A DNA stretch of 64,000 nt from a virus, in the IMG/VR virus record IMGVR_UViG_3300025646_000015, positions 1-64,000 of that record; one strand, written 5' to 3'. Under the pieces are notes generated by a model that saw nothing but the letters and a program-made list of their open reading frames with translations, made no database searches and was not told where the DNA came from. The position numbers were made by a program, and so were the translations under genes. Numbering within the stretch: position 1 is the first letter of the stretch; each line of letters starts with the position of its first letter. Below, piece by piece: positions 1,882-52,946 of the stretch.

Positions 1882-2097
1882 TTATCTGCCATTATTGCAA
1901 ACCACCCTGCTTCCAAGGGTGACAAATGCCTGTTGTAGTTGAAAATTAAAACCTAATGCTTGTAAAGCATCGGCATCTTCTGAGGTTATAGTTTTACGAC
2001 CTGTCAATCTTTGGATTGCATCTTTATGCTCTGATACAATGTAGAAGTGAGTTGTGCCGTAGTTGGTTTTTTCTTTGTAGAATATTGTTTTGTTCAT
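1882..2097 (-). CDS. hypothetical protein
   Basis: ORF track; TTGACT 29 nt upstream. Confidence 0.7.
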   Translation of the reverse strand: MNKTIFYKEKTNYGTTHFYIVSEHKDAIQRLTGRKTITSEDADALQALGFNFQLQQAFVTLGSRVVCNNGR

Positions 2098-2128
2098 AAT
2101 ACTAATAAAGCAAAATTTAATGTGTGAG

Positions 2129-2353
2129 TCAAATTAATTTTAATTTTTTTTTATCCTGCACAAAATACTGAGTAACCTTGCTTGGAAAATTTTCAAGAGC
2201 CATCAATCTCACTCCTTCGTTCTTGTAGATGCTCCACTCTGCTTGATCGTTGCTACCATAGTCTGCCCAACTATGTTCCTCATTGCCAACTAGCAAAAGA
2301 AAAGCATTTCTTGAAATTTCTACGGAATTATTAAAATTTGGTTCAATGTTCAT
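2129..2353 (-). CDS. hypothetical protein
   Basis: ORF track; TTGACG 29 nt upstream. Confidence 0.7.
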   Translation of the reverse strand: MNIEPNFNNSVEISRNAFLLLVGNEEHSWADYGSNDQAEWSIYKNEGVRLMALENFPSKVTQYFVQDKKKLKLI

Positions 2354-2414
2354 AATAGTAATAAAGCATATAGTTTAATCGGCGTCAAATAAAGTTTTAA
2401 TTTTTTTAAAGGCG

Positions 2415-2517
2415 TGCCATACGTGGCAGGAGTCGAACCTGCAAGAGGATAGTTGGCTCTGCAAAGCTCACCTCTCTTATCTCCCCTCAATTGCAGTTAA
2501 GGCAGAACACGTTGGCA
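2415..2517 (-). ncRNA. non-canonical tRNA-like cloverleaf RNA
   Basis: T-arm GCAGG-UUCGACU-CCUGC; terminal helix UGCCAACGUG/CACGU(A)UGGCA; two internal hairpins; promoter (TTGACA 2561-2566) and boxA-like element upstream. Confidence 0.7.
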
Positions 2518-2552
2518 TATATTAAAGAACTAAGATCAATAAACCATATAGT

Positions 2553-2789
2553 TTATTTGATGTCAAATAGTTTTTTCTTTTTTTCTAAATATTCTTCTCT
2601 TGATATTTTCCCACTAGCTAAAGCCATTTCATAACTTAATCTATTTAATTCAATTTCGATCACTAGCATCTTTCCTTCGTGATCTGGAGAAGGATTTATC
2701 ATCTCCAATACTCCATATGATTTAAATTCGTTGTATCTATTTATGAGATATTTCAATCTCTCCCTTGGTGTTATTTCTTCAATCTTCAT
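2553..2789 (-). CDS. hypothetical protein
   Basis: ORF track. Confidence 0.6.
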   Translation of the reverse strand: MKIEEITPRERLKYLINRYNEFKSYGVLEMINPSPDHEGKMLVIEIELNRLSYEMALASGKISREEYLEKKKKLFDIK

Positions 2790-2979
2790 ACCTATACAAA
2801 GGGAGTGAATTCTTATTTTTCCGTATTATTTTATAAAAAAATGAAATAATTTTAATAGTGCCCGCTTACCCGCCCGATACCAACCTGTTATGTACTAGAC
2901 TATTTTAACCAAAGGGTATCAAGTTTTATTTATACAATTTATTACGATTTGTGAAATTTTATTTAGTGTAAATACATTT

Positions 2980-3231
2980 GTGAGGTTATTAATTATTTTA
3001 TTTATTTTTATTTGCTCTTGTAATAATTCAAATAAATTAAAACCTAGCGATACTTTATTTAAAGAAGAAGATAAAAATTGGGAGAAGTTGTATGCTATTG
3101 AATTAGAACGCGCTTTATTTCATGAAGATGATATTGCCTTCTATTTCTTTTGGCCATATTACCTGCGTGAGCGTTATTTAAATAGAAACAAAAAAACCCC
3201 CCTCCCGAAGGAGGGGGGGTACCAACATTAA
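2980..3231 (+). CDS. putative lipoprotein
   Basis: Hydrophobic leader with ICSC lipobox; GTGTAA motif 8 nt before the GTG. Confidence 0.55.
   Translation: MRLLIILFIFICSCNNSNKLKPSDTLFKEEDKNWEKLYAIELERALFHEDDIAFYFFWPYYLRERYLNRNKKTPLPKEGGYQH
3190..3219 (-). terminator. intrinsic terminator
   Basis: CCCCCCUCC-UUCG-GGAGGGGGG followed by a U tract, after the DUF932 gene. Confidence 0.85.
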
Positions 3232-3240
3232 CCAAACAAA

Positions 3241-4122
3241 TTAGTTTAAATTAACCAACTCACTCCAAACTCTGTGCATTAAGTTGGAGTCTTGTCCCAT
3301 AGTTAAAGAAGTTAATCTATTCTCTGAAGAACTAGAACCATCGGTTGAGCGAAATGTCTTACCATGATTTTGATATTCAGTAATGCCATTGAGCAAATCC
3401 CAAGCAGTCTCACCTCTGTTGCCCATACCATTGGTGAAGCGCTGAAGAACATCTTCTCTAGTCTTCTCTGCTTGCTTGGTTTCACCTGCGAATAAGCGAT
3501 TTATAGTTTCCTTGGCTTGAGACCTAGAAACCTTAGTGTCTGCTAAACTATAAATAATTTGTTTAGTTTCTTCGTAGGTTGCTTTAATGTTTTCAATCTC
3601 ACTAGCAATATAAGAATCTAATTTAGATTCCATTTGGGAAGAATGTTTAACCTTTACACTAGATTGAACATCTTTAGCTACCATTCCATTGGTGCAAACC
3701 AATCTTTCTAACATTTTGTTTAAAGTATTCTGAATAGAACCATCGAATGATGTCCAAAAATAAATCAATTCATCCATAGTGTCGCCAACTTTAGGATCAA
3801 TCTCAATAGCATTTTCCTTGCGTAAGGTAAGATACATTCTACGACCACCTTTGGTGAAACCTGCCGTGTCAAACTTCATATCCAACTCTTCGCGAAGATT
3901 ATTTACATAACTAAATGCTTTCGCAGGTTGCATTAATTTATATGTTTTGTTTACAATAGCGACAGGATTATCGTTGCCATCGAATACTCCACGATAGGTT
4001 GGGAAATCATGAATTGGACGAAGAGAGTAATCATTCTCTGCTCCGATTGCGGTTAATACTTCACTTACTGATTCACAACTTGATACGTTCATTTTTATTC
4101 CTTTTGTTTGAGGGTTAATCAT
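3241..4122 (-). CDS. DUF932/DUF945-family phage/plasmid protein
   Basis: WTSFDGS, RLVCTNG, VKH, GETAWDLLNGITEY motifs. Confidence 0.85.
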   Translation of the reverse strand: MINPQTKGIKMNVSSCESVSEVLTAIGAENDYSLRPIHDFPTYRGVFDGNDNPVAIVNKTYKLMQPAKAFSYVNNLREELDMKFDTAGFTKGGRRMYLTLRKENAIEIDPKVGDTMDELIYFWTSFDGSIQNTLNKMLERLVCTNGMVAKDVQSSVKVKHSSQMESKLDSYIASEIENIKATYEETKQIIYSLADTKVSRSQAKETINRLFAGETKQAEKTREDVLQRFTNGMGNRGETAWDLLNGITEYQNHGKTFRSTDGSSSSENRLTSLTMGQDSNLMHRVWSELVNLN

Positions 4123-5587: not shown

Positions 5588-5617
5588 AGGAGGGGATAAA
5601 CCACGGAATAAAATAGA

Positions 5618-5794
5618 TGTGGGGAGGGACTACTGAATACCCTCAACTTTTGGCGTGAACATCAGTTCAATGTGTAACCTACTCGCACTACACTTGGATT
5701 GGACATCCTACCTCAGACATTTGTCCATCAGCACTCCACCATAGAGAAGCATATACCTTATCTCGAACACGAAGAGACATTCGGGTCACCCACA
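5618..5794 (-). ncRNA. structured RNA, probably manA motif
   Basis: GC-rich, no credible ORF; closing UGUGGG/CCCACA and 3' GAGGG-UAUUCAGUAGU-CCCUC hairpin. Resemblance to manA is from memory. Confidence 0.6.
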
Positions 5795-5878
5795 GGAAGG
5801 ATTATAAGCCCTTCCAAATTGGATGGAGCAAGTCGGCGCCCGATACTCAGTTGCCAACTTATTTGCTCCAAATTAAAA

Positions 5879-5961
5879 TGTTAAAGATCAATTTATTTGA
5901 TTTGATTGAGTTTGTTTCTCAATTATTTATCTATTATATACTATTATTTAATATTTGTCAA
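5879..5961 (-). promoter_or_regulatory. consensus sigma70 promoter plus boxA
   Basis: TTGACA(5956-61)-N17-TATAAT(5933-38); TGATCTTTAACA at 5879-5890. Confidence 0.8.
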
Positions 5962-52535: not shown

Positions 52536-52946
52536 TGGTGGAGGTGGCGGGAGTTGAACCCGCGTCCTGATCGCCTGCAACGATCACATCTACAAGTTTA
52601 GTTGATTTTTTTTATAGTTAAGATATCAACATCCAACTAGCCATTTCAATTATTTACAGTTTATGATATGGATAAATTTTTATCTGTTTTGGCAGATTAG
52701 TGACCCCGCAATCTTAATATCTGCGTCAAAAGTTGCGAGGGGGCAGCTTTCAAGCTACCATCTCAAGCTCTTCAGCTTGCTCGAATTGTACGAGATTGTC
52801 GTACTCTTCACGAGCAGCTTCAAGAAGCTCTTCTATGCTATAATAACCTTCGGCATGTATAGCTTGTGTGTCTTGATATCGGAGCCTGACACATCTCCGA
52901 CTTGCAGTGAAAGAATTCGAACGTCAGTCAAATCCAGAACACCCCC
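52536..52946 (-). ncRNA. ssrA: tmRNA
   Basis: 5' GGGGGUG / 3' CACCUCC-ACCA with G3-U; T-arm GCGGG-UUCAACU-CCCGC; internal tag ORF 52750..52854. Confidence 0.95.

What the first reader, a model, noticed from the sequence alone, without database searches (positions are those of the whole stretch)
2415..2566. Independently transcribed tRNA-mimic with oversized arms
Seen: a ~103-nt four-way junction with a canonical T-arm and a 10-bp bulged terminal helix. Two long hairpins, both capped by UGCA-containing loops, replace the D and anticodon arms. There is no D-loop GG and no CCA. It has its own TTGACA promoter and a boxA-like element identical to the tmRNA's. It fits neither standard tRNA, SelC nor YrlA geometry. 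Inference: a novel tRNA-like RNA, perhaps a decoy for anticodon nucleases or tRNA-binding sensors.
Basis: partly seen in the sequence, partly recalled or inferred. Interest (0 to 1): 0.72.

Follow-up and report, generated by a model that had tools for sequence, protein, structure and literature searches.

The report
New tRNA-shaped phage RNA gene
An uncultured marine phage carries a small RNA gene with its own promoter that keeps only the "handle" of a tRNA and replaces the rest with two hairpins whose tips are complementary to each other; it is real, conserved and in no catalogued family, but its job is unknown.

Summary
On the minus strand, 2416-2516 encodes a ~101-nt RNA. It folds into a four-way junction: a 9-bp closing helix with one bulged base, two hairpins and a tRNA-type T arm. 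Twelve distinct homologues from related marine phage contigs keep this fold, and six base pairs show compensatory changes. ARAGORN and Rfam find nothing here.

The gene has its own TTGACA-17-TTTATT promoter. Its 15-nt leader is nearly the same as the one that abuts the 5' end of the phage's tmRNA. That leader matches the rrn-operon boxA of a marine Cellvibrionales genome whose tmRNA is ~80% identical to the phage's. The RNA is therefore most likely made as a stable RNA, protected by antitermination and trimmed by RNase P.

The two hairpin hexaloops, CUGCAA and UUGCAG, are invariant and exactly complementary to each other. There is no 7-nt anticodon loop, no D loop and no CCA, so this is not a decoding tRNA.

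Sister phages carry a clearer cloverleaf-shaped tRNA-like RNA, fused to a further conserved domain, at the same position. Function is unknown; the anticodon-nuclease decoy idea is untested. I read it as a new tRNA-derived phage RNA family of moderate to high interest.

The parts
2561..2566 (-). -35 hexamer TTGACA of the RNA gene's promoter
   Evidence: Read from the sequence. Same TTGAC-N17-T(A/T)TA(A/T)T class as 9 other minus-strand sites, three of which sit 6 nt before an ORF's ATG. Conserved in homologues.
2538..2546 (-). Extended -10 element: TG, one base, then TTTATT
   Evidence: 17-nt spacer from the -35. The block TGGTTTATTG is conserved across form A and form B loci. It was not called by the strict consensus scan because position 2 is T.
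2517..2531 (-). Transcribed leader, starting at the inferred TSS A2531. Contains the boxA-like motif GUUCUUUAAUA (2520-2530). Probably removed by RNase P.
   Evidence: Conservation begins at this A in all homologues. The same leader directly abuts the 5' G of the phage tmRNA and of a Cellvibrionales tmRNA. The motif equals the rrn-leader boxA of that genome, 209 nt before the 16S start.
2508..2516 (-). 5' strand of the closing (acceptor-like) helix P1, GCCAACGUG
   Evidence: 9 pairs, all paired in 12/12 sequences, with one U-A to A-U compensatory change.
2481..2507 (-). Hairpin 1. Upper 6-bp stem is 2497-2502 with 2485-2490. Invariant hexaloop CUGCAA is 2491-2496. The lower part is poorly conserved.
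   Evidence: Three of the six upper pairs show changes on both sides, and the loop is invariant in 12/12.
2443..2476 (-). Hairpin 2. Outer 6-bp stem, internal loop AACUAU, inner stem, and invariant apex UUGCAG (2459-2464).
   Evidence: The inner stem has two pairs changed on both sides (C-G to G-C, U-A to A-U). The apex is invariant. The apex is the exact reverse complement of the hairpin 1 loop. The 6-bp duplex is about -6 to -8 kcal/mol, and the chance of an exact match is about 1/4096.
2426..2442 (-). T-arm-like hairpin: 5-bp stem GCAGG/CCUGC and 7-nt loop UUCGACU
   Evidence: The stem is invariant. The same 22-mer occurs in genuine phage tRNA genes. The loop is UGCAACC or UGCAAUC in subtype A2.
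2416..2425 (-). 3' strand of P1, CACGU-A-UGGC, with bulged A2420
   Evidence: The bulged base is C in L059. Bases after 2416 vary among homologues, and no CCA is encoded.
2389..2415 (-). A/U-rich trailer with no intrinsic terminator. It is followed by the next promoter (-35 at 2383-2388), which drives the leaderless ORF 2129-2353.
   Evidence: No terminator-like site in 2000-3000. The trailer is conserved as an A/U-rich tract. Next promoter.

Best explanation
This is a gene for a small stable non-coding RNA of a marine phage. The RNA derives from a tRNA-type scaffold but does not decode.

Shown:
- It has its own sigma-70-type promoter.
- The conserved transcript starts with a host-type boxA motif.
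- The body folds into a four-way junction supported by covariation. An acceptor-like 9-bp helix is adjacent to a T-arm-like hairpin (their coaxial stacking is assumed by analogy with tRNA), and two other arms end in invariant, mutually complementary hexaloops.

Inferred:
- The boxA leader recruits the host NusB/S10 antitermination machinery, so the untranslated transcript is completed as rRNA is.
- RNase P removes the leader at the U|G junction, exactly as for the phage tmRNA that carries the same leader.
- The 3' end is made by cleavage in the A/U-rich trailer.
- The acceptor/T-arm minihelix then serves as the handle for host tRNA-handling factors. The two hexaloops are the working ends. They pair either with each other (within one molecule, or more easily between two molecules) or with another partner.

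The cellular target is unknown. My best guess is a trans-acting tRNA mimic that engages or titrates a host tRNA-binding factor during early infection.
For: - Structure: the same junction appears in MFE folds of three divergent homologues. On 12 distinct sequences 99.2% of cells are paired, six pairs show compensatory changes, and none of 500 shuffles reached this.
- Conservation: the RNA body is 92-99% identical where flanks are 60-70%. The length differences between subtypes are 1- and 2-nt gaps at several places in the body, as a coding frame would rarely tolerate.
- Promoter: TTGACA-17-TTTATT is the same class that sits 6 nt before the ATG of three adjacent ORFs, and it is conserved in about 35 syntenic loci.
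- Leader: it is near-identical before the tmRNA, where it abuts the mature 5' G, and before a sub-threshold manA-like RNA. The identical 18-mer precedes a tmRNA in a Cellvibrionales MAG. The same 11-12-mer lies 209 nt before the 16S start in that genome, which is the rrn boxA position.
- tRNA ancestry: sister phages carry, in the same slot and behind the same leader, an RNA with a 7-bp acceptor, a D arm with GG and a UUCGA T arm. There, 14 of 24 pairs show compensatory changes, and ARAGORN in intron mode accepts it as tRNA-shaped.
- Not a known family.
Against: - The TSS, the RNase P cut and the 3' end are therefore inferred.
- The acceptor-like helix is 9 bp with a bulge, not 7 bp, so RNase P recognition is plausible but unproven.
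- The -10 lacks the usual A at position 2.
- Covariation comes mainly from one split (subtype A1 against A2) plus a few single changes, and it was counted on a model-fitted alignment.
- The T stem and both hexaloops never vary, so the loop-loop pairing has no covariation support.
- In subtype A2 the T loop loses UUCGA.
- No partner protein was found. The 101-kb contig, about 74% complete, has no Ro60/TROVE and no SmpB.
Confidence: 0.72

Rival explanations
1. It is a processing or punctuation element rather than a trans-acting RNA. On this reading, the tRNA-like fold exists mainly to be cut by RNase P (and by RNase E or Z) so that the early polycistronic transcript is divided or stabilised. The excised piece would have no further job.
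For: - There is no terminator after the element.
- In several homologues (L031, L053, L056, L087) the RNA is followed directly by a Shine-Dalgarno-led ORF with no promoter in between.
- In L084 and L090, tRNA-like units alternate in tandem with another conserved domain, like tRNA punctuation.
Against: - Two hexaloops and an internal loop are invariant while the stems beneath them change. A mere cleavage signal does not need that.
- The element has its own strong promoter, and in the window the downstream ORF has its own promoter too.
Confidence: 0.14
2. It is a self-associating RNA. The result would be a dimer, or larger assembly, with a tRNA-like handle at each end.
For: - The two loops are exactly complementary over 6 nt, with a chance of about 1/4096 and about -6 to -8 kcal/mol.
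- Both loops are invariant in 12/12 sequences across two subtypes whose stems differ.
- The two arms are of similar length. My inference is that a short 4-nt linker makes a straight intramolecular kiss hard.
- The form B RNAs carry conserved palindromic loop motifs, ACUAGU and UGAUCA.
- Large phage-borne RNAs (ROOL, GOLLD) are known to form homo-oligomers (PMC12286853).
Against: - There is no covariation between the loops because both are invariant.
- Invariant loops could equally be protein-binding sites.
- In subtype A2 the T loop also contains UGCAA, which could compete for pairing.
Confidence: 0.18
3. It is a non-canonical but functional (aminoacylated, decoding or suppressor) tRNA, or a tRNA with an intron.
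For: - It has a T arm and an acceptor-like helix.
- The phage's own tRNA-Met and tRNA-Thr genes also lack an encoded CCA.
- The hairpin 1 loop resembles a Cys (GCA) anticodon loop minus one base. This rests on my own knowledge of tRNA sequences.
Against: - ARAGORN finds nothing with default, intron, lowered-threshold or mitochondrial settings.
- The Rfam tRNA model gives no hit even at E<=10.
- There is no 7-nt loop and no D arm.
- The acceptor helix is 9 bp with a bulge.
- Bacterial tRNA introns are group I and far longer (established knowledge).
Confidence: 0.03
4. It is a decaying tRNA pseudogene, or the tRNA-derived half of a phage attachment site.
For: The 22-nt T arm plus the start of the 3' acceptor strand is identical to that of real tRNA genes in unrelated viral contigs.
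Against: - It is more conserved than its flanks.
- It shows compensatory changes.
- It has a conserved promoter and leader.
- The whole-element pattern is absent from one genome for each of 185,579 bacterial and archaeal species.
- The model hit in the candidate host lineage genome is a chance match inside coding sequence.
Confidence: 0.02
5. It is a drastically shortened derivative of the phage tmRNA: the tRNA-like domain only. It would act on SmpB or on stalled ribosomes.
For: - It has the same leader and the same junction to the mature 5' G as the tmRNA.
- It has a similar T arm.
- The motifs ACUGCAA and UUG(C/U)AG occur in the same order as the two strands of tmRNA helix P2 (my reading of the sequences).
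- The window's tmRNA also has a hairpin loop UUGCAGG just before its T arm.
Against: - There is no G3:U70 pair and no tmRNA-type D-loop analogue.
- The model R1 scores only 14.9 bits on the tmRNA.
- No SmpB gene is present in the contig.
- The alternative RNA in the same slot of sister phages is cloverleaf-shaped with a true D arm.
Confidence: 0.06

Closest known systems
tRNA, and the tRNA-like domain of tmRNA (Rfam RF00005, RF00023)
   Same: - A 5-bp T stem with a 7-nt UUCGA-type loop placed next to a helix formed by the 5' and 3' ends.
- A precursor leader ending in U before a 5' G.
- The same leader as the phage tmRNA gene.
   Different: - The closing helix is 9 bp with a bulge.
- There is no D arm, no anticodon loop, no G3:U70 pair, no CCA and no reading frame.
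- Neither model detects it.
Bacterial Y RNA YrlA (tRNA-mimicking partner of Ro60/Rsr; PMC4201824)
   Same: A small non-coding RNA that reuses tRNA-like modules, including a T arm, to engage host RNA-handling proteins. It is also found in some phages.
   Different: - In YrlA the RNA ends lie in the Ro-binding stem, opposite the tRNA-like part. Here the ends form the acceptor-like helix next to the T arm.
- No TROVE/Ro60 gene is in the contig.
rrn-operon boxA antitermination leader (NusB/S10 site; PMC3177189)
   Same: The leader motif equals the boxA found 209 nt before the 16S start in the likely host lineage. It lies at the start of an untranslated transcript.
   Different: Here it precedes a ~100-nt phage RNA gene rather than an rRNA operon. 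No boxB or boxC was identified for this gene, and function was not tested.
phi29 pRNA and ROOL/GOLLD RNAs (phage-borne RNAs that assemble through loop-loop contacts; PMC12286853)
   Same: It is phage-encoded, and two loops of one molecule are complementary to each other.
   Different: - There is no sequence or fold similarity.
- It is much smaller than ROOL or GOLLD.
- Oligomerisation here is only a hypothesis.
Form B RNA of sister phages
   Same: Same genomic slot, same promoter and boxA leader, and a similar T arm. The RNA ends form the acceptor helix.
   Different: - Form B has a 7-bp acceptor and a real D arm.
- A three-way junction replaces the anticodon arm.
- A ~85-nt conserved 3' domain is present. 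This domain is absent from the window's genome.

Membership tests
tRNA (RF00005 / ARAGORN) | Detected by covariance or heuristic tRNA models | tested here: not met
   ARAGORN gave no call with default, intron, lowered-threshold or mitochondrial settings. Rfam gave no tRNA hit at gathering or at E<=10.
tRNA (RF00005 / ARAGORN) | 7-bp acceptor stem, D arm with GG, and a 7-nt anticodon loop | tested here: not met
   The helix is 9 bp with a bulge. No D arm is present. Both candidate loops are hexaloops.
tRNA (RF00005 / ARAGORN) | T arm with a 5-bp stem and a UUCRA loop | tested here: inconclusive
   Met in the window and in subtype A1. In subtype A2 the loop is UGCAACC or UGCAAUC, which keeps only the first U and the fifth A.
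tmRNA (RF00023) | G3:U70 in the acceptor stem, a tag reading frame, and pseudoknots | tested here: not met
   The acceptor pairs are G-C, C-G, C-G, A-U. The body is only 101 nt, and the 1- and 2-nt gaps between subtypes argue against a conserved frame. ARAGORN in tmRNA mode found nothing.
Y RNA / YrlA | Encoded with a Ro60 (TROVE) gene, with the RNA termini in the Ro-binding stem | tested here: not met
   No TROVE match in the 101-kb contig, while the controls did match. The termini form the helix adjacent to the T arm. The contig is only about 74% complete.
tRNA-Sec (selC) | 8+5 acceptor/T stack, 6-bp D stem, long variable arm, UCA anticodon | tested here: not met
   The stack is 9+5 with a bulge. 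No UCA-containing 7-nt loop is present. ARAGORN made no call.
rrn-type boxA leader | Sequence match to the boxA in the rrn leader of the host lineage | tested here: met
   GTTCTTTAACAA lies 209 nt before the 16S 5' end in genome G001. The window leader matches 10 of 11 positions, and form B and tmRNA-type leaders match 11 of 11. Assignment of G001 as the host lineage rests on ~80% tmRNA identity.
rrn-type boxA leader | Binding of NusB/S10 and antitermination activity | not testable with these tools
   This needs biochemical or reporter assays.
manA RNA (RF01745) and other Rfam families | Score at or near the gathering threshold | tested here: not met
   No family scored at E<=10 on 2200-2800, apart from one 19-nt noise hit outside the element.

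The most novel reading that the evidence does not exclude
The RNA is a tRNA-handled connector. Alternatively, it could pair with the phage tmRNA, which carries both matching hexamers, one of them in a hairpin loop next to its T arm. Either way the complex would present two tRNA-like minihelices, able to bridge, sequester or re-target a host tRNA- or tmRNA-handling factor during infection.
Probability: 0.15. Interest if true: 0.78.

Novelty: new variant of a known kind. Interest (0 to 1): 0.56.

Why it matters
Phages are known to carry tRNAs and tmRNAs, but tRNA-shaped RNAs that cannot decode are barely explored. This one is small (~100 nt) and well defined by covariation. It has two invariant, mutually complementary loops that invite direct tests.

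It is also part of a wider, uncatalogued set. The same slot in sister phages holds modular RNAs headed by a tRNA-like unit. Several stable-RNA genes of this phage (the tRNA-like RNA, the tmRNA and a manA-like RNA) share a host-type boxA leader. This suggests that marine phages borrow the rRNA antitermination route to express a toolkit of non-coding RNAs.

If the RNA titrates or hijacks a tRNA-binding factor, or if it self-assembles, it would add a new mechanism to phage-host conflict over the translation apparatus. It would also link an uncultured phage group to a streamlined Cellvibrionales-like host.

Tried and rejected
Searches that found no known family or close relative:
- ARAGORN with default, intron, lowered-threshold, mitochondrial and tmRNA modes found nothing for form A.
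- Rfam at gathering threshold and at E<=10 found nothing.
- blastn against 50,697 phage records matched only generic T arms.

Searches for more homologues:
- IMG/VR scans by protein, by T-arm 22-mer, by leader pattern and by whole-element pattern found only four related viral contigs.
- The T-arm scan also pulled in an unrelated tRNA-like class.
- The leader pattern gave four chance hits, L022-L025.
- The whole-element pattern had no hit in one genome for each of 185,579 bacterial and archaeal species.

Tests against specific ideas:
- Model R1 on the candidate host genome gave only a chance hit inside a coding region.
- Model R1 on the rest of the phage contig found no second copy.
- Neither a Ro60/TROVE gene nor an SmpB gene is in the contig.
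- The ~85-nt form B domain is absent from the phage contig.
- I considered a small ORF (2350-2490, 46 aa, TTG start). I rejected it because the subtypes differ by 1- and 2-nt gaps at several places in the body.
- I considered an intrinsic terminator role. I rejected it because no terminator-like site is present.

Tools and literature that gave nothing usable:
- Literature searches found no description of this RNA.
- A 2023 catalogue of 8,495 candidate structured RNAs from IMG/VR (PMC10690425) could not be checked for overlap.
- The E. coli boxA sequence could not be found verbatim in the papers I read. It rests on my own knowledge plus the position-wise description in PMC3177189.

Full report
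**What the window is.** The window is the first 64 kb of a 101,268-bp IMG/VR virus record, estimated about 74% complete. It is about 31% G+C, and nearly all genes are on the minus strand. The flagged element lies on the minus strand in the 199-nt gap between ORFs 2553-2789 and 2129-2353.

**Known-family checks.** ARAGORN finds only tRNA-Met, tRNA-Thr and a tmRNA in the window. Rfam finds only the same three genes at gathering thresholds. Rfam also finds nothing relevant at E<=10 on 2200-2800. Extra ARAGORN modes (introns, lowered thresholds, mitochondrial, tmRNA) still give nothing for this element.

**Homologues.**
- An upstream DUF932 protein (3241-4122) served as a synteny anchor.
- It led to four related IMG/VR contigs and 61 marine metagenome loci.
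- About 35 of these carry, 0.4-1.5 kb downstream of the protein, the same promoter block and a conserved initial transcribed sequence, AGTTCTTTAA followed by an A/T-rich run.
- Behind that leader there are two kinds of RNA.
- Form A is the window's type: 17 loci and 13 distinct sequences. It includes a diverged subtype A2 (L051, L053, L055), about 80% identical in the body.
- Form B is a longer RNA of 232-500 nt.

**Structure of form A.**
- MFE folds of the 101-103-nt bodies of the window, L003 and L051 independently give the same four-way junction.
- I built a covariance model from the alignment with this structure and realigned 12 distinct sequences.
- 99.2% of cells form standard pairs, and six pairs change on both sides: one in the closing helix, three in hairpin 1 and two in the inner stem of hairpin 2.
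- None of 500 shuffles reached these values, and sliding the partners by 1-3 columns dropped pairing to 35-50%.
- Caveats: the alignment is fitted to the model. Most covariation comes from the A1/A2 split, although L059 has an independent U-A to C-G change. The T stem never varies.
- The conserved closing helix is 9 bp with one bulged base (A, or C in L059).
The bases after the helix vary, and no CCA is encoded.
- The RNA body is 92-99% identical among A1 members, where neighbouring DNA is only 60-70% identical.
- The two subtypes differ by 1- and 2-nt gaps at several places in the body. This argues against the 46-codon ORF that overlaps the element.

**The loops.**
- The hairpin 1 loop CUGCAA and the hairpin 2 apex UUGCAG are invariant in all 12 sequences, although the stems under them change.
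- The two loops are exact reverse complements. The chance of that is about 1/4096, and the duplex is about -6 to -8 kcal/mol.
- Because neither loop varies, the pairing is a hypothesis without covariation support.
- My geometric argument is inference only. The two arms are of similar length and are joined by a 4-nt linker, which suits a reciprocal two-contact dimer better than a straight intramolecular kiss.
- In subtype A2 the T loop is UGCAACC or UGCAAUC rather than UUCGACU. So the "canonical T arm" is not a fixed property of the family, although the first U and the fifth A of the loop are kept.

**Transcription and processing.**
- The promoter is TTGACA (2561-2566), a 17-nt spacer, then TTTATT (2538-2543) preceded by TG.
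- A strict consensus scan misses it because position 2 of the -10 is T.
- Ten minus-strand sites share the TTGAC-N17-T(A/T)TA(A/T)T architecture. Three of them lie exactly 6 nt before the ATG of ORFs starting at 2353, 2097 and 1843, which implies leaderless mRNAs starting at the A of the ATG.
- By the same spacing, the RNA starts at A2531, which is exactly where cross-species conservation begins.
- The 15-18-nt leader is nearly identical to the sequence that directly abuts the 5' G of the phage tmRNA (52947-52964). It also recurs before a sub-threshold manA-like RNA (RF01745, 49 bits against a cut-off of 55.2, E 1.7e-11).
- A scan of one genome per bacterial and archaeal species for the 18-mer gave mostly chance hits. 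One hit, in a Cellvibrionales MAG, lies directly before a tmRNA gene that is ~80% identical to the phage tmRNA.
- In that 1.7-Mb genome the same motif, GTTCTTTAACAA, lies 209 nt before the 16S 5' end, downstream of a TTGACT site. That is the position of the rrn boxA.
- The motif differs by one base from the E. coli rrn boxA as I know it. This is consistent with the position-wise description in PMC3177189.
- I therefore infer that the leader is a host-type boxA and that it gives this untranslated transcript rRNA-style antitermination.
- I also infer that RNase P removes the leader at U2517|G2516, as it must for the tmRNA.
- No terminator follows the RNA. The trailer is A/U-rich and the next promoter starts about 25 nt later, so the 3' end is probably made by processing.

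**Relation to tRNA.**
- Form B begins with a much more orthodox tRNA shape: a 7-bp acceptor, a D arm with GG and a UUCGA T arm.
- In form B the anticodon arm is replaced by a three-way junction with conserved loops that contain the palindromes ACUAGU and UGAUCA.
- RNAalifold finds 14 of 24 pairs with compensatory changes.
- ARAGORN with introns allowed accepts form B as tRNA-shaped, but it calls inconsistent anticodons.
- Form B continues into a ~85-nt conserved domain with no Rfam match. That domain is absent from the window's genome.
- In L084 and L090, two units of tRNA-like RNA plus domain stand in tandem.
- Form A thus looks like a reduced member of a tRNA-derived RNA cassette that occupies the same slot in this phage group.
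- An origin from the tmRNA's tRNA-like domain is an alternative. In its favour are the shared leader, the motifs ACUGCAA and UUG(C/U)AG in the order of tmRNA helix P2, and a UUGCAGG hairpin loop in the window's tmRNA.
- Against a tmRNA origin, form A lacks G3:U70 and the tmRNA D-loop analogue.

**Function.** Nothing here identifies a partner.
- The contig has no Ro60/TROVE and no SmpB gene.
- The whole element has no counterpart in bacterial genomes.
- It is single-copy in the phage.
- The anticodon-nuclease decoy idea is neither supported nor excluded. The display loops are hexaloops rather than 7-nt anticodon loops, which weakens it.
- I commit to this reading: a stable, RNase-P-matured tRNA mimic whose acceptor/T-arm minihelix is the handle for host tRNA-handling factors, and whose two invariant loops are the working ends.
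- A processing-signal role and a self-associating role are the main rivals.

**Novelty.** Literature searches found no description of this RNA. A large 2023 catalogue of candidate structured RNAs from IMG/VR (PMC10690425) could not be checked for overlap. Earlier notes of this scan report boxA-type leaders before phage tRNA arrays, before a stand-alone manA RNA, and before another tRNA-shaped phage RNA on other genomes. These are leads, not evidence, but they fit the picture found here.

Noticed in passing
L005:5490-5989; L036:3982-4363; L039:3873-4127; L084:2299-2700; L090:653-1100: Sister phages carry a modular 'form B' RNA in the same slot. It consists of the boxA leader, a cloverleaf-like tRNA-shaped unit whose anticodon arm is a three-way junction, and a ~85-nt conserved domain with GNRA and UUCG loops and no Rfam match. 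L084 and L090 have two such units in tandem, and some members have an extra 5' domain.
   Followed up: partly
L008, L010-L012, L014-L020 (positions): Unrelated viral contigs carry 80-130-nt tRNA-like genes. They start with GGGCGUG, have a G3:U70 pair and a tmRNA-like D-loop analogue, and end in CACGUCCA. ARAGORN mostly does not call them. They may be miniature RNAs consisting only of the tmRNA tRNA-like domain.
   Followed up: partly
window 5614-5815 (-), promoter at 5933-5961, leader copy 5875-5890: A sub-threshold manA RNA (RF01745, 49 bits against 55.2, E 1.7e-11). It has its own perfect TTGACA-17-TATAAT promoter, a hairpin and a boxA-like leader, so it looks like a free-standing RNA gene.
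   Followed up: partly
window 2353, 2097, 1843 (-): Three consecutive small ORFs start exactly 6 nt after the -10 hexamer of TTGAC-N17-T(A/T)TATT promoters. This implies leaderless mRNAs in the phage's early region.
   Followed up: partly
window 52536-52946 (-); L094:2010-2373 (-): The phage tmRNA is ~80% identical, leader included, to a tmRNA in a 1.7-Mb Cellvibrionales MAG, which is a host clue. ARAGORN missed that bacterial tmRNA. The phage tag peptide is acidic and ends in MVA rather than the usual LAA.
   Followed up: partly
window 52575-52591 (-): The window's tmRNA has a hairpin (GAUCG stem, loop UUGCAGG) just before its T arm. The form B phage and the bacterial tmRNA have UUGAAG at that place. 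The loop is complementary to the hairpin 1 loop of the form A RNA. Only one data point exists.
   Followed up: no
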